Positions 135 through 63,081 of a stretch of 64,000 bases of DNA are shown piece by piece. The first letter of the stretch is position 1; each line of letters starts with the position of its first letter. The position numbers and the translations under genes are program-made. Below the pieces are notes generated by a model. The model saw only the letters and a program-made list of their open reading frames with translations. It did not search any database and had not been told where the DNA came from. Origin of the DNA: Naegleria gruberi (taxonomy: Eukaryota); assembly GCA_000004985.1 (NCBI GenBank), contig GG738847.1; one strand, 5' to 3'.

Positions 135-913
135 TTACAATTCTCTTGTTTTAACTTGTCTATCAATTTTAGCAAGAGGAGTGGTTGGTGTTGCCACTGT
201 TAATGGTTTCTTTGTTGTCTTGATTGAGTTCAACAAGTCTCTTACGAATTGTGGATTTCCCCAATCATCATCTTGTTCAAGTTCATCCAATGGATATGAT
301 AAAACTCCAGTTAAAAGAGAAAGATCTAGACCTCTATCGTCATATTTCATATTAAGGAAGTGATGAAGAGTGGCTTTTGTGGATTGATCGAGTTCTTGAA
401 GGGTTTGAACTTTTTGAGATGCATACTCCTCAGGTGCTTCAGCAACAGAACCTTCCATTCCATTTCCACCTACTTGATCCAATGAAGGAATGAAAGCTCC
501 TTCTTCATCCTCTACATCCAATGGTCGAGGAACATTTTGAAATAAATAAGAATTATCTTGTTGAGTTTGCTTTCTATATTCCGATTAAGAAAAACAATCC
601 AAAATTCATAAACCTACTCTACGTTTGCTGTTGAGTTTTTTCCGAAAATTCCCAACAATTTTCTTCCTCCTTTTTGTTCTTTTGTACTCGTAGCATCCTC
701 ATCCTCTTGCCAACCTTTTTTCAGCAATGAATTATCTTTAGCAAGAGTGATTGGTGGTGCTGAACCACCATCATCCTCTCCATCATCGTTGGCGTTCTTT
801 TGTTCCTGAAGGTACTTTCTTCTTCTACTTAAAACACTTCCGATATTACGATCTTTAACCTTTGTTGCTCCTTCGTTTGGGTTGACGGCATTTTCATCAG
901 CAGCTAACGACAT
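135..913 (-). CDS. Hypothetical acidic protein, predicted 2 exons: complement(join(135..573,618..913)). Intron 574..617 is 44 nt, GTAGGT...TATAG.
   Basis: Track ORFs 614..913 and 135..521 on the same strand join in frame through a 44-nt intron with a canonical donor and acceptor. ATG at 913..911. No family recognised. Confidence 0.4.
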
Positions 914-4708: not shown

Positions 4709-6151
4709 TTAATGTTCATGGATTGTCTTGGAAACAAGTAAAATTGAGTCTCTGTTGAATCTAGTGACAAATCTCAATCCATAAATACATAATGGAAGTG
4801 TAAACAGAGCAAACACTGCGAGTATAATATTACCAGGAATCGAGTAAATAAACCAGAACGACCAACCAATATAAACCCAAGATCCTTCATGAATTGAAGT
4901 CATAACTCTCTCACAAAAACCTGTATGTAAAGCATCAGAAGCCTGACATACGATATGTACTATTGGGAATGCTACAGCACAAACAGGAATAAGGAAAAAT
5001 ATCATAGAAATGAAAAATGTAAGTAAAGTTATTGGAATTTTCATGGTAAAATAAAGTACAGCAAATCCAACATCTCTACAAAATGCATACTCGAAGCAAC
5101 TATTGTATGATCTTTTTAAATATTCCCAAATACCTCCTCTACTTTCAGATTGGTTGTCAGTGTTGGTCCTAACAGGCTCCTCCACATTAGTATTCAAGAT
5201 GGTGTTAGTTTCAACTATATTTGTTTGAGGCATTATCATTACGCTCGATCTATTATTACCTGTTGATGCCCTTGAAAGTGGATTATTTGAGTGAATATCA
5301 ACTGATCTTCCTAGCATAGTTCCATAATGTTGATAATAATAAGAGTTGTGAGATGTTGGGGAGTGCATTGAGTCTACAGAATTATCAGAGTCATCAGAGT
5401 CGTAATGGTGGAATGATTCATCCAAATTATTTGTTTGTAAAATTTGTTTCATTGGTGAGGTTGGAGAAAGGAAATCTACACTTCTGGCAGGAGGTGTTTT
5501 GAAATAATAATCTCTTTCTGGATCATAAATTGCCCTAGGATCCTGTGTTGCAAGTGAAATATTGTAGGAACTGAATGTATTGGCAGTATTTACATTTTCA
5601 TTCAGTCTACTTTTCTTAATTGGAGAAGGATTAGCCAAATTGGAATCATCGACCTGAATTAAAGGATTTTCTTCCTCCTCTTTGAAATTAGATCTTGCTG
5701 TCAATGAATGAAATCCTTTGACCAATTGTTCCGTGATATTCACTAATTTGAAACGAGGAGCAATTTTATGATTCATTGCAAGCAAATGTCTTGCTAAGAA
5801 TATTTCTACAAGTACAAAGATTCGTGTCAGCCATGCAACACCTGCAAACATGAACATTCCAATAAATATCGGAGAAAAGGCTGTTGCTATTAGCAATCCT
5901 AAATAAATAGTTATAAAATATAGAAAACTCAACGGAAATGATAATAATGTATGTACAAAAGCAAAATAAGGTCTCCTCGTAAAACATGACTTGATAATAT
6001 GTTTTAAATGTTTACGTATTTTAGATGGTTGTATATAATGAGAGCAAAACCATCCTATCCAAGATTTATCCCTCTTCTTTCTCTCGGGAAAGTAGGAAAT
6101 ATATGTTGCATCAACTAGGCTGGAATTAGATCTCCTCCTAGAACTGGACAT
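4709..6151 (-). CDS. Hypothetical polytopic membrane protein of 480 aa, with N- and C-terminal clusters of TM helices separated by an S/N-rich hydrophilic loop.
   Basis: Single uninterrupted ORF with ATG at 6151..6149 and several hydrophobic 20-25 aa segments. No family recognised. Confidence 0.5.
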   Translation of the reverse strand: MSSSRRRSNSSLVDATYISYFPERKKRDKSWIGWFCSHYIQPSKIRKHLKHIIKSCFTRRPYFAFVHTLLSFPLSFLYFITIYLGLLIATAFSPIFIGMFMFAGVAWLTRIFVLVEIFLARHLLAMNHKIAPRFKLVNITEQLVKGFHSLTARSNFKEEEENPLIQVDDSNLANPSPIKKSRLNENVNTANTFSSYNISLATQDPRAIYDPERDYYFKTPPARSVDFLSPTSPMKQILQTNNLDESFHHYDSDDSDNSVDSMHSPTSHNSYYYQHYGTMLGRSVDIHSNNPLSRASTGNNRSSVMIMPQTNIVETNTILNTNVEEPVRTNTDNQSESRGGIWEYLKRSYNSCFEYAFCRDVGFAVLYFTMKIPITLLTFFISMIFFLIPVCAVAFPIVHIVCQASDALHTGFCERVMTSIHEGSWVYIGWSFWFIYSIPGNIILAVFALFTLPLCIYGLRFVTRFNRDSILLVSKTIHEH

Positions 6152-31608: not shown

Positions 31609-34600
31609 TTAATTATGCTCGAGTAGGTTTGCAAAGTCAGAGTAGGATGATAGAATCTTTTGTTGATATTCTGCGAGTATTCCAACAATCATTTCCTTTT
31701 CGCTTTCATCCATTTCATTTCTTTCAGAAATATCAAGTGCTGTTGCAACAAGGTTTTCATAATATTCCATTTGCTCAGGTTTGAGATTATCATATGTAAT
31801 TGGTCTATGGACTCTCATTATTTTTTCAAATTCTTCAGCTACAACAGAAGCCCTATCTACAATACTTTGTGGAACACCTGCTTTCTTGGCAACTTGAATA
31901 CCATAACTCTTTTCGCAAACACCTCTTGCAAATTGGTAAAGGAAAATAACATCAGTAATTCTTCCTGTTTCGTCCTTTTCAACTTCGCATTCCATTTGAT
32001 AAAAGTCAATACTTGGATGATGCTTCAACTCTTCAGTGAGCTCATAATAGTGAGTGCTAAACATACACAAACATCCAACAACATCAGCCATGTACTGAGC
32101 AACAGAATTAGCAATTGCATAACCATCGTGTGTAGATGTACCTCTTCCCAATTCATCTAGAATGACAAGAGAACGAGAAGTTGCATTTCTAACAATATTG
32201 GAAGTTTCCAATAATTCAACCATAAATGTTGATTCACCAGCAAGAATTCTGTCATTAGCACCAATTCTTGTGAATATTCTATCAATAAGAGTCAATTCAC
32301 AAGCCTCTGCTGGAACAAAGCAACCAATTTGTGCCATAATAACAGCAATACATGATGATCTGAGAATTGTTGATTTACCACCCATATTTGGTCCAGTAAC
32401 CAGCAAAGTGGTTGCATCGTCAGCCCCCATAAAAATGTCATTAGGAATAAATCCACTGGTTGTTCTAACAGTTGGGTGTCTCATCTTAGTTACTTTTAGT
32501 ACTGGTTTGTTTTTAAAAGGAAGAATCACTGGTCTACAATAGCCCTCTTGACTACTTGTTGTATAAAGAGAGAGGAGACAATCTAATTCTGAAATTGATC
32601 TCATAATAGTCTTCCAATATTGGTCGTATGTTGAAAATTCATTGAGGATTTCTCTGTACTGGTTCTCTCTAATATCATCCATCTTTGTTTGACGGAGTTT
32701 GCTTTCTGTTAATTTCTTATCAAGGAATGGATGGCTCCATTTACGAGTTTTTTGGTTCTTCTTTTCACTCTTGAATCCATCCGGCATATTATCAAGTTCA
32801 ACCTTTACCTCAGTTTCAATCGTCCATTGTTTAACTATTTTAGTATTTCCTTTATCAATTTTCATTTTGGCAGAGGGAACCTCTTCTTTAACTTTTGCAA
32901 TAAAATCCTGAACTTCCTTGTCAATCTCTGCAACCTCTTCTAAATACTTTTCATATTCTGGACCCAAAGAACCATCTATACGTTCTACAATACCCTCCGA
33001 CAAGGCCTTTTGCTGATCAATTTGGTTTTCAAAAGTACTTAAAACATTATCAATTTCATCAAGGTTATCAATATTAATTACTCTTTTCAAAATGCTAGAA
33101 TTCACAGATTCTGCATACTTTTGCAATCCTTGAACAATGATTACTCCAGCTCTCAAACTCTCTAATGCGTGTAAATATGGTTTTACCCTTCTTTTGCTTG
33201 TACTGGTATCAAAAGCAATTTCTTTTTGTACCTTTCTGGATTCTCTATACAAACAATGAAGACATCTTTCCAGATCCTTTATATTTGAGAGTTGATCTCT
33301 AATAGATTGAGGTTCTTCTATTATAGACATTATATCCTCAATAGCATCATATCTATCATTAATTTCTTCAGAATTCTTCAAAGGTCTTGTTAACCAATTT
33401 TCCAACATTCTTCTTCCCATAGCTGTGACTGTATTGTCAACCAAACTCAATAAAGTACCTTCCTTTGTTCCAGTATTAGAATTTACTTTGACATCCAAAT
33501 TAGTGAGAGTTTGTCCATCTAGAATCAAATGACCTGTATCCATTTTCCCGTCATATAATGAAAATTTGATCGTTTTAGATAAAAGTACATCTTCTTTTCT
33601 CAACTAGTTTGAAATATTCTCAATAAATATTGAAAAGTGGTGTTACTTACGTATTTCAAGTAAAATAAGGCCGCACCAAAACTAGACATAACAAGGTCAT
33701 TATCCAAGAATTGTTTAACAATTGCATCCTCTGAAATATGAGGCAGATCTTCAAGAAAATATTTTGTTACATCTGCTGTTGGAAAACCAGTGAATTCTTT
33801 TTGAGCAAGCTCATTACAAGTCTTCTTTTCTCTAATCACAACCCTTTTGTTATCAATATTCTTTTTAGTTTGAACAGAAGTTTGCCCCTTTTCAATAATT
33901 ATTTCGCTTGGGTTGATGGTGTGAATGAGTGTATTGAATTGATTTCTGTGAGTGTCATCTTCAATGAATCCAATATAGAAAGCATCCATAGAAATGTCCA
34001 AGAATGTAATACCGTATCTAGCATGCATAATGTCCTCCTTTACACATAGCAAGTACTGATTACCGTTGTCTGATATGAAATCCAAATCGGTAATAGTAGC
34101 AATAGTGGTAATGTCACAAATTTCTCTTCCAACACAACTGGATGCAGTCTTCTTTTCCTTTTTTCTTTCGTTTCTTTCTTCAACTGTTTCTCTTTAAATT
34201 TGATTATTTTCATTGAGATCATAAAATATACTTACGTTTGTTCAACACGCAAGCAATCATATCCTAAACTGATAAACTTTTTAGCATAATTCAGAAAGGA
34301 ACTTTCTGGTACACCAGCCATTCTCATGTTAATTCTTTCAGTTATCTTTAAATCAAACTCCTTCTTTGCTATATCAGCATCTTCCTCATACAATTCATAG
34401 AATTTTCCCTTTTTGAAAAACACAAGTTTGTCCATATGGTTTTTCTTTGTTGCCCAGTACTGTTGTTCCATTGGTGTTAAATTACTCATATCACCAGTTG
34501 AAATGTACAAAGTTGACTTGTCAAAATCAGGATCACTTTCTGGCCTTCTCTTATCATCTAATCTATTGGTAAGAAATGGAAATCTATCCTTTTCTTTTTC

Positions 34601-34894
34601 TTTCTTCTTTTTAATACCAGTAAATTTTGAAGTTCTAATAGTATTTTCCTCCAATTCTTCCTCATCATCGGATTCTTTCTTTTTCTTCTTTTTTGCTGTA
34701 GTCTTTTTTGCTGGTTGCTTTTTCTTTGGTTTTTCCTCTTCTTCATCAATGAATTCAAAGTCTTCATCCTCATCGGATGATTCATCCTTTTTTCTCTTCT
34801 TGCTACCACCAACCGACGATGGTACAGAAGGAGATGCGCTCGATGAAGCACCCTTCTTCTTTGTGAATGAATAAATGTTTTGTTGGACAGGCAT
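31609..34894 (-). CDS. MSH6: DNA mismatch repair protein MSH6 (MutS family). 3 exons: complement(join(31609..33603,33651..34191,34237..34894)), introns 45 and 47 nt.
   Basis: The MutS ATPase domain carries Walker A TGPNMGGKSTILR and the motifs STFMVEL and DELGRGTST. The exon 1-2 junction restores the conserved GY..RVEQTET...REIC block. The N-terminus MPVQQNIYSFTKK matches the MSH6 PIP box (QSTLYSFF). Donors are GTAAGT. Confidence 0.9.
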
Positions 34895-54323: not shown

Positions 54324-54727
54324 TTTCGCTTACAATAATTTTCAAAAATTATGTTATAACAGACGTAGTGATAGGTTCAAACATACCAAACTTGGACAAT
54401 GTTCAACCGCTTTTGATTGCAGATTTGTCCTCTCCAAGAAAGGAGAGATTTGGCCAATCCTTTAATTCCAACAGACATAGACGAAACCTTGAAATTAAAC
54501 ACGTTTTCGACTACCATACAATCAATTGCAAAGTGTTGTTTTGATGTTGGTAATGCAAAATCTCAATCCTCTGTATTTGAACCAACAGGAACCAAGTTCA
54601 TTTATCATCCAACCACTTTCCTTGATTGGATAGCCATTATGCCGCATAATCCAGCTCGTTTTTGCTCTTGCTGACAGGTGTCAACAACTCAAAGGTTTTC
54701 AAAGCCAAAAAAAACAACATCAGAATC

Positions 54728-56947
54728 ATGTCCATATTACCATTAGGAAAGTCAAAGAGTCTGTTTGTTGGTTCGTTGTGGTTGACCTGCTTGACCTGCA
54801 TCTTCATTCTTCTAGTTTCGTCCACGCATGTGTTTGCGAAAGTTCATCAACAATTCATGCTTCAAGCAGATAACAACACGACAACCACCTCCCAAAACAC
54901 CAATAATCAAACTATCCTCCAATTAATTCCTCCTCCTGATGTTTCCCTCACAGATTACAACGTTACAGAATTTATTATTCTACTTTCTAATGTGACCAAT
55001 AATCTAACATTGGCTCAAAACAAAATTGTTCTTACCAATTACACCAAAATCCATCCTTCAATCATTGTAACTTTGAGAAGCTTATTTATTCTTTTTAATA
55101 TTTGGCTTTTAGTTTCGGCAGTCATGTTCAGAAATTATGAACCTGTCAAATCAAAGTTTTTCTTTGTAATTGTATTAATTAGTGTCAATATTATTGCTCA
55201 TAGTCAGGGAGTTATTGAAAATCTTCCGATTATGAGGTTGTATTTTGAAAGTTATTGGAATAAGTTTATAAACGAAAGGAGACTAAACTCTATTGATGCT
55301 CAAACTTTTTACATGAATAATTTGGATTCGAAAGGATTTCCAACATGGATGAGAGGATATGCCTCTTTTGAAAACGGCTATTGTTTCTTCAATAGTTACG
55401 TTCTGGCCCCTTTGGTAGTTATGGGATTGGCATTATATTCGATTCAGATTCTTAAACTAATGTTACTACTCTTTCTGAAGGATAAAATTGAATCGGTCGA
55501 AAGATATTGGCAAGATTTCAAACAGAAACAATTAGAGAAACTCAAAAATATGAAAAAACAAGAAACGAATCAAACTGATCTGAAAACTCCAAAATCTATT
55601 GCAGATCAAGATCCAACAAATTCCACAAGTCAATCATCACTTAGACCTTCAATAACTACAAGTAATGAAATATCAATTACAGACGATACTCTCTCATCAA
55701 TTGATGTGGATGGTTCAGATGATGAAGTTATTTCACTAGATGTATTATCTGAAAGAGGACGATTCCTAAACCTTTTAAAGATTATTATCAGATATAAGGT
55801 TATTGAAATATCATACATTATCTTTTGGGGAATTGTAACTTATATTGCATTGAGTGCGAGAATATTTCTCTCCCCTGCAGATACACTCATTGAACCAATT
55901 TTTAATTCTTCATGGAAATCATTAGAAACTTATTGCAATTATACGGCTAGAGTTGATAATAATTTATATACCTTGATAATTTCTGCTATATTATTCTTAA
56001 TAGTTCCAATATTTCTCACAGTTGACTGTTTCGTTTCCCTTATAAAATATTTCAGACTAAGAAGGGAAAATAAGGAAAAGGGAATCAAGACTGAGAATTT
56101 CCTTGTGTATCACTTTTATGAAACAGATCCATTTGTATACAGATCAGAATCTTTACTTCGTTTCATATTTGACGTTATTGCTTTAATTATTTACTTGGTT
56201 CTTAGCTCAACGATCAATACTGATGGTACAGTGGGAGGAACAATTTCATCACTTGTAATTACAATTTTACTTCACTTTTTTGGAGGAACTTTCAGTAATC
56301 CTGGTGTGACCATTTACAAAACCTATCACAATTTCATTCGCATGAAGAAGAAGAGTAAGAATGCACTCATGCCCTCTCAACAAATTCAAAATCTTCAAGA
56401 GTTAATGTCCTCTCCAGTGAGTTCCTTCTCAATTGATTATGTCATTTCACGAAGAGTGGAAAGAGAATTTTTCCATGAATTTCTTAAAAAGGAATTCTCA
56501 GTGGAAAATTTACTTTTCGCTGAAGATTTACAAAAATTGAGAAATATTAATGAAAGACATGCAAGATCCAAAGTTTCCAAAGTCAAGGAAATGGTCAAAC
56601 TATACCTTTCAGATAATAGTTCAGTTTTTGAAGTGAATATTCCATCAAAAATCATTCATGCAGAATTGAAAGATTTTAGAGAGCTCACTCAATTAATGAA
56701 TCAACATGGAATTCAATTAAACAGCATTCCAAAAAGTATCAAGGAAAAGAGCTCAACAAGATATTTTCCTCAAATAGATTCCACCATTGAAGATCAAGTT
56801 CGAAAGCTCATTGAAAATTTGTCAAAATCTGACGTTTTCTCAACACTCAACATTGAAATTTACAAAAATTTGATGGATTCTTTCTATAGATTTAAACATT
56901 CTAGAAAGTGGATTGAATTTGTCAAGACAAATAAGGTTCAAATTTAA
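54728..56947 (+). CDS. Receptor-like 7TM-RGS protein with signal peptide, N-glycosylated ectodomain, seven TM helices and a C-terminal RGS domain.
   Basis: ATG at 54728 gives MSILPLGKSKSLFVGSLWLTCLTCIFILLVSSTHVFA, a signal peptide. The ectodomain has NxT/S sites, then seven hydrophobic helices, then an RGS box (FFHEFLKKEFSVENLLFAEDLQKLRNI). The track ORF 54662 starts at TTG. Confidence 0.7.
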   Translation: MSILPLGKSKSLFVGSLWLTCLTCIFILLVSSTHVFAKVHQQFMLQADNNTTTTSQNTNNQTILQLIPPPDVSLTDYNVTEFIILLSNVTNNLTLAQNKIVLTNYTKIHPSIIVTLRSLFILFNIWLLVSAVMFRNYEPVKSKFFFVIVLISVNIIAHSQGVIENLPIMRLYFESYWNKFINERRLNSIDAQTFYMNNLDSKGFPTWMRGYASFENGYCFFNSYVLAPLVVMGLALYSIQILKLMLLLFLKDKIESVERYWQDFKQKQLEKLKNMKKQETNQTDLKTPKSIADQDPTNSTSQSSLRPSITTSNEISITDDTLSSIDVDGSDDEVISLDVLSERGRFLNLLKIIIRYKVIEISYIIFWGIVTYIALSARIFLSPADTLIEPIFNSSWKSLETYCNYTARVDNNLYTLIISAILFLIVPIFLTVDCFVSLIKYFRLRRENKEKGIKTENFLVYHFYETDPFVYRSESLLRFIFDVIALIIYLVLSSTINTDGTVGGTISSLVITILLHFFGGTFSNPGVTIYKTYHNFIRMKKKSKNALMPSQQIQNLQELMSSPVSSFSIDYVISRRVEREFFHEFLKKEFSVENLLFAEDLQKLRNINERHARSKVSKVKEMVKLYLSDNSSVFEVNIPSKIIHAELKDFRELTQLMNQHGIQLNSIPKSIKEKSSTRYFPQIDSTIEDQVRKLIENLSKSDVFSTLNIEIYKNLMDSFYRFKHSRKWIEFVKTNKVQI

Positions 56948-57271
56948 TTGTGTTGGATTTTCCATGTTGTGTTGTAGGAAGTGTTGGAAAAAGAAATTGG
57001 ATTTACAGAATTGTGTGCACAATAGAGTGCAAGAAAATTCATTTGTTATGAACTGTTGGCAGATGATATTTGAAATAAATTATTTGACTTTTGACTTGTA
57101 AATTGGCTAAAAGATTTTTATGAACCATGTCAACAGAAAAGTCATTCAAGTTGTCCACAAAAGCAACATCATTTCTGATAGTTGACTTTTCTTGATAAAT
57201 CGTTCAAACATTTGACATGAAAAAGATTTCTAGACAATTTAAGATACACAAGAAAAAAACAAATTCAAAAC

Positions 57272-58810
57272 ATGAGTGATTTTCATGCAAGAAACTATCA
57301 GATAGTATTTGAAGAGGCAATAAAATGTGCCCAGTTTCGAATAGTTTTTCAAAGCTTTTTAGAAAGACATCATAATCAAGAATCTATTCTATTTATTAAC
57401 AAGGTGATTGAATATACTGAAGAATATAAGAAAGTTGTTGGTCTTCCTTTCGAATACGAAACATTCTCGTTAATGTTGAGAGGAAACAATCATCAAGCTG
57501 ACATTCGTATTTCTTCAGCATCATCAAATAGACGAAATACATTAAAACTTTCTAGAAGAAGCTTGCAGAATTTACACGACAAGATGAATTCTATTGTCGA
57601 AACCTTTCTTAGAAATGATGGAGAAAGTGAACTAAACATTGGTCCACTTCAAAAGTCATCTATAGAACTCTGGCAACAAACAAGTCAAAAATTAAGTAGG
57701 GAAGAACAAGATGATGCATGTAGTGAAGGTTCGTCAGGCTCTAGCTCTTCAAATTCTTCATCACTCAGCTATTCGAAACCAAGTTTAGAAAGTCTAATTG
57801 AGGAATTTCATCCTGGGTATTTATTAGGATCTATTTCATTGTTAATTTTGGTAGATTTGAGTTTGGGACACTTTATCAAGTTTTCCCGATCGGAAGAATT
57901 ATTGCACTTCCTTAACAAGATGGGAATGAGCTATACGAGAAAGATTGGAATTGACATTTCGAAAGGATACAAGGTAGATTTGAGATTTAAACCCAATGAT
58001 TTAAAGACACCTGTTATAACGGATGAGCATATTTATTTTGGATTGACATTAGCTCAGGATACACCCGACTGGAAGATTGTTCATGAGAAGAAGAATTTGA
58101 CCGTTAGTACTTCTAGAACATCGTACGTGTTTAATTCCAAGCAAATGAAAGGATTTAAACTTTGTAAATTATCAATTGATCTGCCGTATAGTTTGGAAGA
58201 TGTTTGGGGAATGTGGACCCATCAGAAGAATCATCTCTATTTCGAACCAATGTTTTGTAATAATTTGAATTATCTGAATTATATTGAACCGAATGAGAGC
58301 TTTCATGGAACAACTTGTCCCTATGCTGTAAAGATTATGACCACGGCTTTTGATACCAAGATTCCACTCCTAAAGAAGAGATATGTGGAGACAGTTACAA
58401 CATGTGTAAAAGATAGTGCAATCGATCTTTACATGTTTGTTTTACATACAGCTGATCTTCCTAGTGGAGTTGCAACAATGCCGTCCAATTCTTTAGCAAT
58501 TGAAGGATTGTGTTATTATATAATGATGAGAGTGAATGAGAAGACGACGAGATTTTTGAATATAATGTACTCTGATTTTCAATTACCTTTGCAAAATATG
58601 ACCATTGGGCAAGTATTTAAACAGAGAGGTAAAACCATGTTGAATGGATTGAATTCAATATTACACAAATTGACTGATGGAAGGAAGAATCCTGTTGATA
58701 CCTTAGAAAATGAAGATACAGCTGAAGCTCAACGTTGTGTTGATGATAACATGAAATCTTTCCCAGATAGATCTTGGTATATGGAATGGAAGGGGTTGCA
58801 AAAGAAATAA
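57272..58810 (+). CDS. RGS-domain protein with an N-terminal RGS-like box, a Ser-rich linker and a C-terminal roughly 300-aa globular domain, possibly a lipid-binding or START-like fold.
   Basis: N-terminal ARNYQIVFEEAIKCAQFRIVFQSFLERHHNQESILFINKVIEY resembles RGS helices. The C-terminal domain assignment is speculative. Confidence 0.45.
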   Translation: MSDFHARNYQIVFEEAIKCAQFRIVFQSFLERHHNQESILFINKVIEYTEEYKKVVGLPFEYETFSLMLRGNNHQADIRISSASSNRRNTLKLSRRSLQNLHDKMNSIVETFLRNDGESELNIGPLQKSSIELWQQTSQKLSREEQDDACSEGSSGSSSSNSSSLSYSKPSLESLIEEFHPGYLLGSISLLILVDLSLGHFIKFSRSEELLHFLNKMGMSYTRKIGIDISKGYKVDLRFKPNDLKTPVITDEHIYFGLTLAQDTPDWKIVHEKKNLTVSTSRTSYVFNSKQMKGFKLCKLSIDLPYSLEDVWGMWTHQKNHLYFEPMFCNNLNYLNYIEPNESFHGTTCPYAVKIMTTAFDTKIPLLKKRYVETVTTCVKDSAIDLYMFVLHTADLPSGVATMPSNSLAIEGLCYYIMMRVNEKTTRFLNIMYSDFQLPLQNMTIGQVFKQRGKTMLNGLNSILHKLTDGRKNPVDTLENEDTAEAQRCVDDNMKSFPDRSWYMEWKGLQKK

Positions 58811-58832: not shown

Positions 58833-61188
58833 TTACTTTGATGCTGTCACATTCTTCTCAGCTTTACCGATTTCGACCTTTCTGGCTCTTTGGGCAAAAC
58901 CAAGAGAACACAGAGTTTCTGGACAACTCTCTGAAGTTGGACTTACATTTACAAACATCAAAATCTTAGAGTTACCTCCCAAAGAGTCTTGTAAAAGTGA
59001 GGTGAGTTTTGAATTTCTAAATGGAATGTGACTCTTCTTAGTTGCCAAGGCAGAAATAACTTCTCCGAGAGAACTCAAACTAGAGTTAATACTTTGAGCT
59101 TCTTTCAGTCTGTCACCCTTAACATCGGTTCTCTTTAATCTTTCGCTACCTGCCAAATCGATCAAGTGAAGCTTGCCTGATACCTTTTGGTTTGTGTACG
59201 TATTGATACCTTCAGTAAAAACACTGACAATACAGTGAGATCTAGAACTGTGTGCGTTGATGTTATTGTTTCCGACTGCTCTATTATCGTAGCCTTGTGA
59301 AAGGACTCTCCTCACATCATCTGATGAGCTCACCTTATACTTGGTCAGGCCTGGAATGGCTACCTTATTACTCAACATGATATCAAGTTTGGTCTTTTCC
59401 TTGCTTAATAAATCAAAGAGTGTTTCATTATAAATTTCCATAACAGCAACTTCAACCTCGTAATTATATTCGCCTTTTCTTTCCTTAACCATTGCGAAAA
59501 GCTCGTCTAGAGTTCTATAATTTACACCACGGTTGGATGGTGATCCTTCCATAGTATAGGTCTTACCAGAACCTGTTTGACCGTAAGCAAAAATACATAC
59601 ATTATAACCGTCCAGAATAGATGTTGCCAGTGGTTTGACATCTTCGAAAACTTGTTCTTGTGTTGAGTTGATTCCAAAAACGTTATCAAACTCAAACTTT
59701 TGAATCTTTTTACCCTCCTTATCAGAAACTTTGATTTCTCTCTCATCTACAGTATCAATACAAGTTTCTGGATTTTGACCGTCCTGCTCTGGAATTATTG
59801 GTCTAATTCTTAAGTTGACTCTAATATTTCCCTTCAGGTCTTGTAACTGGTTGTATAAAACTCTTCTTTCCTTAACTTCCTTCTTGTACTGGTCTTCCAG
59901 ATCTTTATAACCATCTAAAAGTTTCTTCATAGCCTTAGAAGAAATGAGTTGAACAGCATTCAGGAATTCTTTTTGCATATCTTGAGCTTCCTTCTTAAGG
60001 AACCCATTTTCGAACTTGATTGCTTGAACTTGTTTCTTCATTCTAATTACCTTGGTACTCATGTGTTTAATTGATCCGTCTTTCTGTTCCTTCAGTCTTT
60101 GAGAAAGATCCCTAACATCAGTATTGTATTTTTGTTTGACATCTGTCAGAGATTTGTCAAGAGTAACAACTTGCCCTTCGAGTTGAGTATTCTTTTGCTT
60201 CAACTTTTCAATGGTTTTTTGCATATCAGTTGTTGCTGTTGAGTTGGAAGAAGACTTTTCAGCTGCTTGTTTGATCTTCGTTTCGTATTCCTTTTCCATT
60301 TCCTTTTGCTTCTTTTCAAAATCAGCTTGTTGCTTCTGCATCAATTGTTGAACTTCTTGGTTTGAAAGACCAGGCGAGCCTCTTGGTGTTGTTCTTGGAG
60401 TGGTCGATTTCTCTTCACCTCCCTTAGATGCCTCTGTCTTGGTTTTTAAGAGTTCTTCCTTGAGTTTTTTGATTTCTTCCATTTGCTTTTGTTTTATCAT
60501 TTGATCTTCCATTTGTTTTTGCAATGCTTCTTGGAGATCCTTCTTCTTCTTTTCATAGGCCTCTTCAGTAACAAACTTACCACCAGCAGGCATGGCAGTT
60601 GTAATGGTTTGATTTGTGGCTACTGGTTGAGGTGAATTTGATGAACTAGGTTGAGTTTTAGTGACCATTGGACTGGGTTTCTTTTCTGGAACAATGTCAT
60701 CATCGGATTCAATTTCTTCATCTTCATCAGACATTAATTCATCCCAATCTACAGTTCCTAAGCCCAATTGGCTGGCTATTTCTTTTCTTTTTTGGAGTTG
60801 AGGATCAACAGTTTTAGTGTTTGTCTTTTTTGGATCGAATGTGACAGGCTTATTGAATGTTTTTTCTCTTCTTCTCGGGCTTTCCTCAACCATATCTTGC
60901 TAAACATTTAAAAATTAAATCCAAGAATAATCATTAGATACATTCTAAGGAAGATACTATAACACATACCACTCTTCTTACATAATTAGCAGGAAATAAC
61001 CCTACTTCTCCATTAGCTTTTTCTCCAATCCACCAATCACTCTTGTGTGTTTCAATCACTTTAATTTTTTCATATTGTGATAGAGTGAGATGTTGTTTAT
61101 CCGATGGAAAGAATGGATAGAGGACCTCAACAATGAACATTGCTGGACGTCCCGACATGGTCGTATTGCTCGTCTCCGTTGTACTCAT
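58833..61188 (-). CDS. Kinesin-14 (Kar3/Ncd/KIFC family) C-terminal motor with a coiled-coil stalk; predicted N-terminal SH3-domain exon: complement(join(58833..60899,60970..61188)), intron 60900..60969 (70 nt, GTATGT...GTTTAG).
   Basis: Kinesin-14 neck and motor motifs are present (LKGNIRVNLRIRP, FAYGQTGSGKTYTM, SSRSH, DLAGSE). The upstream ORF 60934..61188 encodes an SH3 domain (VLYPFF...SDWWIGE...GLFPANYV). A GTATGT donor lies just past the ANYVRRV of the SH3 ORF and the acceptor sits exactly at the first codon after the in-frame stop. The fusion is inferred, not proven. Confidence 0.75.
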
Positions 61189-63008: not shown

Positions 63009-63081
63009 TCCCCCTTAGCTCAGTCGGTAGAGCGTCAGACTGTTAATCTGCAGGTCGGTGGTTCGAGCCCACCAGGGGGAG
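63009..63081 (+). tRNA. tRNA-Asn (anticodon GUU), 73 nt, no intron.
   Basis: Hand-folded cloverleaf. The acceptor pairs UCCCCCU with AGGGGGA. The D arm GCUC/GAGC has the A box TAGCTCAGTCGG. The anticodon loop is CUGUUAA. The T arm GGUGG/CCACC carries the B box GGTTCGAGCCC. The discriminator is G73, as expected for Asn. There is a U1-A72 pair and one U27-C43 mismatch. Confidence 0.9.

What the first reader, a model, noticed from the sequence alone, without database searches (positions are those of the whole stretch)
54728..58810. Tandem RGS locus with a signal-peptide 7TM-RGS receptor-like gene next to a second RGS-domain gene
Gene 54728..56947 combines a cleavable signal peptide, a glycosylated ectodomain, seven TM helices and a C-terminal RGS box. 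That architecture is known from plant AtRGS1 and some fungal and protist proteins. Its location 325 bp upstream of a second gene with an N-terminal RGS-like box plus an unassigned C-terminal domain suggests a duplicated or co-regulated G-protein-signalling module.
Basis: partly seen in the sequence, partly recalled or inferred. Interest (0 to 1): 0.55.

Follow-up and report, generated by a model that had tools for sequence, protein, structure and literature searches.

The report
Two unrelated RGS genes, adjacent in Naegleria
Two neighbouring Naegleria gruberi genes, a seven-helix membrane protein ending in a G-protein "off-switch" (RGS) domain and a soluble RGS protein carrying a lipid-binding START-like domain, are real but ordinary members of a very large RGS gene family, and they are not duplicates of each other.

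Summary
The window is Naegleria gruberi. Both ORFs exist at the stated coordinates.

**Gene 1** (54728..56947, 739 aa)
- It has an N-terminal hydrophobic segment, a sequon-rich ectodomain, seven conserved hydrophobic helices and a C-terminal RGS box.
- The RGS box passes Pfam's threshold and keeps all eight RGS4 Gα-contact residues checked.
- It belongs to a Heterolobosea-wide 7TM-RGS family.
- 7TM-RGS proteins are already described in Naegleria: N. fowleri has 28, and some were shown to be GAPs (PMC9283941).
- Its 7TM part shows no detectable sequence homology to plant AtRGS1.

**Gene 2** (57272..58810, 512 aa)
- Its C-terminal domain is START-like by fold only.

**The adjacency**
- The two RGS boxes are 17% identical, less than gene 1 is to rat RGS4, so tandem duplication is rejected.
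- The pairing is not repeated at the two N. lovaniensis homologues examined, and the N. gruberi paralogues lie on other scaffolds.
- The 324-bp gap is typical for this window.
- With 229 RGS genes, about three adjacent pairs are expected by chance.

Co-regulation was not tested. Low interest: new members of a known kind.

The parts
54728..56947 (+). Gene 1: 7TM-RGS protein, 739 aa plus stop. The public model XP_002682312.1 / NAEGRDRAFT_62406 covers only aa 275-739.
   Evidence: Uninterrupted ORF. It is 100% identical to P0001 over 465 aa. The N-terminal 274 aa align with paralogue P0002 and homologues P0010, P0011 and P0012.
54728..54838 (+). aa 1-37: basic n-region (K8, K10), 19-residue hydrophobic core, then VFA|K. 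This is a signal peptide or a signal anchor, not verified.
   Evidence: Hydropathy peak 2.49 at aa 9-40. The segment is not conserved in the family alignment.
54839..55057 (+). aa 38-110: short predicted extracellular N-terminus with six N-x-S/T sequons. It has no GPS, EGF or lectin domain.
   Evidence: Sequons at N49, N60, N78, N88, N92 and N104. NxT/S motifs recur just before TM1 in family members. K+R density is 0.04. No Pfam domain was found.
55058..56293 (+). aa 111-522: seven-transmembrane module. TM1 is about 111-134, TM2 145-164, TM3 223-250, TM4 357-378, TM5 412-440, TM6 476-497 and TM7 504-522. Family motifs are RN-x-(E/Q)P-x-KS after TM1, ETDPFxYRxE before TM6 and PG(I/V) after TM7. 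The Cys pair C219/C403 is invariant.
   Evidence: Hydropathy, family-averaged peaks and the positive-inside count, and invariant columns. No match to any Pfam GPCR family, to PDB sequences or to the plant RGS1 7TM region.
55478..55795 (+). aa 251-356: long Ser/Thr- and acid-rich predicted cytoplasmic loop 2. It is variable in length across the family. A regulatory or phosphorylation role is only an inference.
   Evidence: Alignment gaps and low conservation. Composition: K+R 16, D+E 19.
56423..56944 (+). aa 566-739: RGS box with an insertion of about 50 aa between the N128-equivalent loop and helix 7. The residues equivalent to RGS4 E83, S85, E87, N88, N128, D163, S164 and R167 are all retained (E589, S591, E593, N594, N637, D717, S718, R721).
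   Evidence: Pfam PF00615, 29.4 bits. PDB hits to RGS17, RGS10 and RGS9. Residue mapping to RGS4, whose sequence was verified against 1agr_E. Invariant in all 13 family members. hhalign 96.9% to the plant RGS1 RGS box.
56948..57271 (.). 324-bp intergenic spacer with no recognisable element.
   Evidence: Sequence read. No Rfam family or tRNA match. The median ORF spacing in the window is 295 bp.
57272..58810 (+). Gene 2: RGS-START protein, 512 aa plus stop (= XP_002682313.1 / NAEGRDRAFT_45771, 'predicted protein').
   Evidence: ORF. Exact sequence is in NCBI. pN/pS is 0.04 against a 99%-identical metagenome variant.
57293..57919 (+). aa 8-216: divergent RGS box split by two disordered inserts (aa 58-92 and 149-169). 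It keeps the E87 and N128 equivalents (E37, N122). It has S85->N35, N88->S38, D163->G199, S164->H200 and R167->K203.
57983..58681 (+). aa 238-470: START-like helix-grip domain, detectable by fold only. It is followed by two C-terminal helices (aa 481-511).

Best explanation
These are two independent members of Naegleria gruberi's greatly expanded RGS repertoire that happen to lie head-to-tail.

**Gene 1.** It is a 7TM-RGS "receptor-GAP". The predicted layout is an N-out/C-in seven-helix membrane protein with a short, probably N-glycosylated extracellular N-terminus. Its cytoplasmic C-terminal RGS box retains the full canonical Gα-binding surface. It most likely holds one or more Naegleria Gα subunits in the GDP state by accelerating GTP hydrolysis at the membrane. 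An extracellular or membrane cue would modulate that activity. This is inferred from AtRGS1 and from the N. fowleri 7TM-RGS proteins.

**Gene 2.** It is a soluble protein that joins a divergent RGS box to a START-like lipid-binding domain. It most likely binds a Gα subunit, with uncertain GAP strength. It would link that binding to a lipid ligand or to membrane targeting.

**Shown here:** the ORFs, the domain content, residue conservation, purifying selection on gene 2, and the lack of a close relationship between the two RGS boxes.

**Inferred:** GAP activity, ligand regulation, lipid binding, signal-peptide cleavage and glycosylation.
For: - **Organism and gene identity:**
- **Gene 1 architecture:**
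- **Gene 1 contact residues:** all eight RGS4 contact residues checked are retained and are invariant across 13 family members.
- **Family distribution:** N. lovaniensis, Willaertia, Acrasis and Pharyngomonas, plus unnamed metagenome sequences.
- **Precedent in the genus (PMC9283941):** N. fowleri has 28 7TM-RGS and 79 other RGS proteins. RGS boxes of Nf 7TM RGS2-4 accelerate GTP hydrolysis on Nf Gα2, Gα3, Gα5 and Gα7.
- **Gene 2 domains:**. Selection: 18 synonymous vs 3 non-synonymous differences.
- **Not duplicates:**
- **Adjacency not conserved:**
- **Local context:** no other G-protein-signalling gene is present in the 64 kb.
- **Chance expectation:** about 3.3 adjacent RGS pairs genome-wide, and a typical spacer, using 229 RGS proteins from PMC3971589.
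Against: - No biochemical or expression data exist for these two genes.
- The AF2 model of gene 1 was unusable (pLDDT 38), so the 7TM fold rests on hydropathy, loop charge and conserved cysteines only.
- Gene 2 has lost several canonical Gα-contact residues (D163->G, N88->S, S85->N, S164->H), so GAP function is doubtful.
- The chance calculation assumes random gene order and a gene count of 15,727 taken from my own knowledge.
- Orthology of the N. lovaniensis loci to this exact locus is imperfect. Gene 1 is one of three N. gruberi co-orthologues, and gene 2 has no close orthologue.
Confidence: 0.8

Rival explanations
1. Tandem duplication: the two genes arose by local duplication of an ancestral RGS gene, followed by domain gain or loss.
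For: Both genes are on the same strand, adjacent, and both carry RGS boxes. The boxes are homologous at superfamily level (hhalign 92.5%).
Against: The RGS boxes are 17% identical, lower than gene 1 vs rat RGS4 at 24%. BLASTP gives E 0.44. The family HMMs do not cross-hit (E 4.7 and 9.2). Each gene's closest relatives are on other scaffolds and in other genera and share that gene's full architecture. The RGS box is C-terminal in one gene and N-terminal in the other.
Confidence: 0.03
2. Co-regulated or functionally coupled module: the membrane 7TM-RGS and the soluble RGS-START act on the same Gα pathway, and selection keeps them adjacent (shared regulation or read-through transcription).
For: The genes lie head-to-tail with a short 324-bp spacer. 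Both are predicted Gα-binding proteins. Both are intact, and gene 2 is under purifying selection.
Against: The spacer is typical for the window (median 295 bp). Adjacency is absent around the N. lovaniensis homologues and around the N. gruberi paralogues, which lie on different scaffolds. Gene 1 is a lineage-specific paralogue. Chance alone predicts about 3 such pairs. No other signalling genes are nearby.
Confidence: 0.1
3. Gene 2's RGS box is a degenerate, non-GAP Gα- or protein-binding scaffold, as in Axin, sorting-nexin or GRK-type RGS-homology domains, so the locus holds only one true G-protein regulator.
Against: The residue regarded as most critical (my own knowledge), the N128 equivalent, and the E87 equivalent are kept. 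AtRGS1-like sequences also differ at the positions equivalent to S85, N88, D163 and R167. AtRGS1 is reported to accelerate GTP hydrolysis on AtGPA1. pN/pS is 0.04 over the rest of the gene.
Confidence: 0.4

Closest known systems
Naegleria fowleri 7TM RGS proteins (Bosch, Jeck & Siderovski 2022, PMC9283941)
   Same: Same genus and same architecture (7TM followed by a C-terminal canonical RGS box). They belong to a large lineage-specific expansion. The RGS boxes have a canonical Gα interface, and GAP activity was shown for Nf 7TM RGS2-4.
   Different: The characterised Nf proteins (7TM RGS1-4) have large ectodomains with GPS, EGF and lectin-like modules. Gene 1 has only about 70 extracellular residues and no Pfam ectodomain. 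No direct sequence comparison with Nf 7TM RGS1-4 was possible here. The nearest relative found outside N. gruberi is N. lovaniensis P0010 (about 35% identity).
Arabidopsis AtRGS1 (plant RGS1 family)
   Same: Overall architecture and presumed logic: a 7TM receptor-like protein whose cytoplasmic RGS box acts as a GAP for a self-activating Gα. The RGS boxes are homologous (hhalign 96.9%).
   Different: The 7TM regions show no detectable sequence homology (hhalign probability 0.7%, and the aligned stretch is out of register). Gene 1 is longer (739 vs about 460 aa), with a loop 2 of about 100 aa, an RGS insertion and a possible signal peptide.
START / StARkin lipid-transfer domains (STARD3/4/5/10, CERT, PCTP) and RGS-START architectures noted in de Mendoza et al. 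2014 (PMC3971589)
   Different: No sequence-level START match (Pfam E>1). Sequence identity to solved START domains is 8-15%. The ligand is unknown. The close homologues retrieved are all from Naegleria.
Canonical R4/RZ-type RGS boxes (RGS4, RGS17, RGS10)
   Same: Gene 1 keeps the RGS4 residues E83, S85, E87, N88, N128, D163, S164 and R167. Its best PDB sequence hits are RGS17, RGS10 and RGS9.
   Different: Identity is 24% and there is an insertion of about 50 aa. Gene 2 keeps only the E87 and N128 equivalents and carries two disordered inserts.

Membership tests
7TM-RGS receptor-GAP architecture class (gene 1) | Seven transmembrane helices N-terminal to the RGS box | tested here: met
   Seven TM-length hydrophobic segments plus one N-terminal segment. 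All seven recur as family-averaged peaks over 13 sequences. No dedicated TM predictor or usable 3D model was available.
7TM-RGS receptor-GAP architecture class (gene 1) | C-terminal RGS domain passing a curated threshold | tested here: met
   PF00615 at 29.4 bits vs the cut-off of 23.9. All 13 family members hit RGS, best E 5.2e-16.
7TM-RGS receptor-GAP architecture class (gene 1) | N-out/C-in topology that places the RGS box in the cytoplasm | tested here: met
   K+R density is 0.14-0.30 in predicted inside loops vs 0.00-0.10 outside. Sequons lie in the N-terminus and ECL2. An invariant Cys pair lies in ECL1 (just before TM3) and ECL2. This is an inference from sequence, not an experiment.
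7TM-RGS receptor-GAP architecture class (gene 1) | Gα-contact residues of the RGS box retained | tested here: met
   E589, S591, E593, N594, N637, D717, S718 and R721 correspond to RGS4 E83, S85, E87, N88, N128, D163, S164 and R167.
7TM-RGS receptor-GAP architecture class (gene 1) | GAP activity on a cognate (self-activating) Gα subunit | not testable with these tools
   Shown only for N. fowleri 7TM RGS2-4 (PMC9283941).
Plant AtRGS1 family (gene 1) | 7TM region homologous to the AtRGS1 7TM region | tested here: not met
   hhalign of the 13-sequence family 7TM profile against a 14-sequence plant RGS1 7TM profile gives probability 0.7% and E 0.076, and the aligned stretch is out of register.
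Adhesion-GPCR-like Naegleria 7TM RGS (Nf 7TM RGS1-4 type) (gene 1) | GPS motif and/or EGF or lectin ectodomain | tested here: not met
   No Pfam domain other than RGS in gene 1 or in any of the 13 family members. The ectodomain is only about 70 aa.
Known GPCR sequence families (Pfam 7tm_1/2/3, Dicty_CAR, Frizzled and others) (gene 1) | Significant profile match of the 7TM region | tested here: not met
   No Pfam GPCR hit at E<=1 in 13 members. A PDB profile search of the 7TM region returns only noise (E>=0.6, ATP synthase subunit b). A fold-level test was not possible.
RGS domain (gene 2) | RGS sequence profile match or RGS fold | tested here: met
RGS domain (gene 2) | Canonical Gα-contact residues retained (GAP competence) | tested here: inconclusive
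   The E87 and N128 equivalents are kept. S85->N, N88->S, D163->G, S164->H and R167->K are changed. Plant RGS1 also deviates at several of these positions.
START / StARkin domain (gene 2) | Helix-grip fold superposable on solved START domains | tested here: met
START / StARkin domain (gene 2) | Match to the Pfam START profile PF01852 | tested here: not met
   No hit at E<=1 in gene 2 or in any of its 6 homologues.
START / StARkin domain (gene 2) | Binds a lipid or sterol in the cavity | not testable with these tools
   No experiment or ligand modelling was possible.
Tandem duplicate gene pair | The two RGS boxes are each other's closest relatives | tested here: not met
   17% identity, BLASTP E 0.44 and no HMM cross-hit. 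Each gene has much closer relatives elsewhere.
Conserved gene pair / signalling gene cluster | Adjacency recurs in related genomes or among paralogues | tested here: not met
   No member of the partner family lies within +-10 kb of N. lovaniensis P0010 or P0006. The N. gruberi paralogues lie on scaffolds of different lengths. Caveat: no strict one-to-one orthologue of this locus was available.

The most novel reading that the evidence does not exclude
The seven-helix module of gene 1 defines a GPCR-like family that is widespread in Heterolobosea and also seen in unnamed environmental sequences. Its hallmarks are the motifs RNxxPxKS, ETDPFxYRxE and PG(I/V) and a TM3-ECL2 cysteine pair. It has no detectable sequence relationship to AtRGS1, to any Pfam GPCR family or to any solved 7TM protein. 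On this reading, 7TM-RGS "receptor-GAPs" were assembled independently in this lineage and in plants: a convergent fusion rather than shared ancestry.
Probability: 0.4. Interest if true: 0.35.

Novelty: new member of a known kind. Interest (0 to 1): 0.15.

Why it matters
- It matters little beyond annotation. Naegleria is already known for a huge RGS and Gα expansion and for 7TM-RGS proteins with demonstrated GAP activity.
- The public model of gene 1 (465 aa) lacks the N-terminal 274 residues, which include TM1-TM3, so it hides the 7TM architecture.
- Gene 2 and its Naegleria relatives carry a START-like domain that sequence profiles miss. This gives a testable link between Gα signalling and lipids.
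- The gene 1 family supplies conserved motifs and a cysteine pair. These could be used to ask whether 7TM-RGS proteins arose once or several times.

Tried and rejected
- **AF2 on gene 1.** The 3-sequence alignment gave pLDDT 38. The model was useless, so no fold search of the 7TM module was run.
- **Foldseek afdb50.** The library was not available.
- **Genomic context.** The look-up of encoding contigs had no record for the N. gruberi proteins P0001 and P0002. Paralogue neighbourhoods in N. gruberi could therefore be compared only by scaffold length.
- **Literature.** The supplements of de Mendoza 2014 are not held. Searches for the gene IDs and for RGS plus START in Naegleria found nothing. 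The gene count of 15,727 could not be confirmed from a paper.
- **7TM module against PDB.** The profile search returned only noise.
- **Tandem duplication.** Considered and rejected.
- **Upstream 85-aa ORF (54417..54674).** Considered as a possible upstream exon. It is in a different frame, has no Pfam hit and is of a length expected by chance.
- **Gene 2 as a pseudogene.** Rejected, because pN/pS is 0.04.


Full report
**Source and coordinates.** The window is Naegleria gruberi. The C-terminal 465 residues of the first ORF are 100% identical to NCBI XP_002682312.1 (NAEGRDRAFT_62406). The second ORF is identical to XP_002682313.1 (NAEGRDRAFT_45771). Both lie on a 941,567-bp scaffold and both are named only 'predicted protein'. 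Both are on the + strand, 324 bp apart.

**Gene 1, domain content.**
- Pfam detects one domain, RGS, above the curated cut-off (29.4 vs 23.9 bits, aa 569-644).
- Hydropathy gives an N-terminal hydrophobic segment (aa 12-30) and seven further TM-length segments.
- I collected relatives by an exhaustive profile search. They come from N. lovaniensis, Willaertia magna, Acrasis kona (annotated '7 TM domain-containing') and Pharyngomonas, plus several unnamed metagenome proteins.
- In a 13-sequence alignment the same seven hydrophobic peaks are conserved.
- Loop charge follows the positive-inside rule for an N-out/C-in topology. K+R density is 0.30, 0.15, 0.20 and 0.14 inside, and 0.04, 0.10, 0.06 and 0.00 outside.
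- Six N-x-S/T sequons lie before TM1 and two lie in extracellular loop 2.
- Two cysteines are invariant, one just before TM3 and one in ECL2. This is the arrangement of the classical GPCR disulfide.
- Family-specific motifs are RN-x-(E/Q)P-x-KS after TM1, ETDPFxYRxE before TM6 and PG(I/V) after TM7.

**Gene 1, signal peptide.** It remains unproven. The h-region is long (about 19 residues). VFA|K fits the -3/-1 rule. The segment is missing from the annotated paralogues, and Met44 is an alternative start.

**Gene 1, RGS box.**
- I verified that my RGS4 sequence equals PDB 1agr chain E.
- Alignment then shows that E83, S85, E87, N88, N128, D163, S164 and R167 of RGS4 are all retained, as E589, S591, E593, N594, N637, D717, S718 and R721.
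- S591, E593, N594, N637, D717 and R721 are invariant across the 13-member family.
- An insertion of about 50 residues explains why Pfam aligns only the first two-thirds of the domain. phmmer picks up the C-terminal DSFYRF segment separately.

**Gene 1, comparison with AtRGS1.**
- I retrieved plant RGS1 sequences and compared profiles.
- The RGS boxes are homologous (96.9% probability).
- The 7TM regions are not detectably related (0.7% probability, and the aligned stretch is out of register).
- No family member hits any Pfam GPCR family. A PDB profile search with the 7TM region returns only noise.
- AlphaFold on the shallow 3-sequence alignment failed (pLDDT 38). The fold could therefore not be compared.

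**Gene 2.**
- Pfam RGS is sub-threshold for this protein alone (15.5 bits).
- All seven family members hit RGS (best E 1.6e-6).
- The family RGS profile matches the gene 1 family RGS profile over 161 columns (92.5% probability, E 5e-7).
- An AlphaFold model (pLDDT 69.9) shows a helical N-terminal domain interrupted by two disordered inserts, followed by a helix-grip domain.
- Foldseek agrees (E 7e-9, probability 1.0).
- No sequence profile detects START.
- The RGS contact surface is only partly kept. The E87 and N128 equivalents are present, but S85->N, N88->S, D163->G, S164->H and R167->K are changed. GAP competence is therefore uncertain.
- The gene is functional. Against a 99%-identical metagenome contig there are 18 synonymous and 3 non-synonymous differences, giving pN/pS 0.04.

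**Duplication test.**
- The RGS boxes of the two genes are 17% identical over 173 aligned columns, less than gene 1 vs rat RGS4 at 24%.
- BLASTP finds only a 16-residue match at E 0.44.
- HMMs built from each family do not find the other gene.
- Each gene has far closer relatives elsewhere that share its whole architecture.
- Tandem duplication is rejected.

**Module test.**
- Gene 1, P0002 and P0003 form an N. gruberi-specific trio (41-50% identical). Each is about 35% identical to the single N. lovaniensis protein P0010.
- Around P0010, and around the N. lovaniensis RGS-START homologue P0006, no member of the partner family occurs within 10 kb. The two lie on different contigs.
- The N. gruberi paralogues of both genes lie on scaffolds of different sizes.
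- The other ORFs in the 64-kb window encode unrelated functions. These include OTU, kinesin, PUF, WD40, eIF1A, GST, a kinase, MutS, an actin-like protein, FANCL and ataxin-2. There are no further RGS or Gα genes.
- The 324-bp spacer is typical; the median in the window is 295 bp. It contains no Rfam family or tRNA match.

**Chance expectation.** N. gruberi encodes 229 RGS proteins (PMC3971589). With about 15,727 genes (my own knowledge), random gene order predicts about 3.3 adjacent RGS pairs per genome. A given RGS gene has a 2.9% chance of an RGS neighbour.

**Known biology.** N. fowleri encodes 28 7TM-RGS proteins and 79 other RGS proteins. The RGS boxes of Nf 7TM RGS2-4 accelerate GTP hydrolysis on specific Nf Gα subunits through a canonical interface (PMC9283941). 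7TM-RGS proteins in many protist lineages, and RGS combined with START, have been noted before (PMC3971589).

**Verdict.**
The START domain it proposed testing for is present at the fold level.
- The locus consists of two unrelated members of an enormous, already described gene family, and their adjacency is most simply chance.
- By-products worth recording are the truncated public model of gene 1, the cryptic START domain of the gene 2 family, and the lack of detectable homology between this 7TM module and AtRGS1.

Noticed in passing
window 54728..55550 (aa 1-274 of gene 1): The public N. gruberi model XP_002682312.1 (465 aa) starts at Met275. It omits the N-terminal hydrophobic segment, the ectodomain and TM1-TM3. 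The full 739-aa sequence is not in the 15-billion-protein collection. The omitted part is conserved in paralogues and in other genera.
   Followed up: yes
window ~57312..57325; L003 ~225..240: A metagenome contig (ERR1078381), 99% identical to gene 2, carries a 14-bp deletion inside codons 14-19. This puts the ATG at 57272 out of frame with the rest of the gene. The rest of the gene is under strong purifying selection. It could be an assembly error, an alternative start or strain variation; this is unresolved.
   Followed up: partly
window 55382 (C219) and 55934 (C403) of gene 1: Two cysteines are invariant in all 13 family members, at the top of TM3 and in ECL2. This matches the position of the classical GPCR disulfide, although there is no sequence match to any GPCR family.
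   Followed up: partly
window 31609..34894 (-): A MutS homologue is split over three consecutive ORFs: domain I at 34232..34894, domain II at 33600..34085 and domains III and V at 31609..33603. This implies introns or frame changes between them.
   Followed up: no
window 4709..6151 (-): A 480-aa ORF matches Pfam PF13796 'Sensor' (E 2.3e-11). Pfam describes the family only as 'Putative sensor'. From my own knowledge it is known mainly from bacterial proteins, so this may be a candidate for lateral transfer.
   Followed up: no
window 58833..60893 (-): A kinesin with a C-terminal motor domain (kinesin-14-like, Pfam E 7e-111) converges on gene 2, with only 22 bp between the two stop codons. The same arrangement is present in the metagenome contig L003.
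   Followed up: no
window 63009..63081 (+): tRNA-Asn (GTT). It is the only Rfam or ARAGORN hit in the window.
   Followed up: no
P0079, P0100, P0110, P0150 and others (plant RGS1 proteins): Several plant RGS1 proteins carry a precomputed Pfam 7tm_3 (PF00003, class C GPCR) hit in their 7TM region. No member of the Naegleria family does.
   Followed up: no
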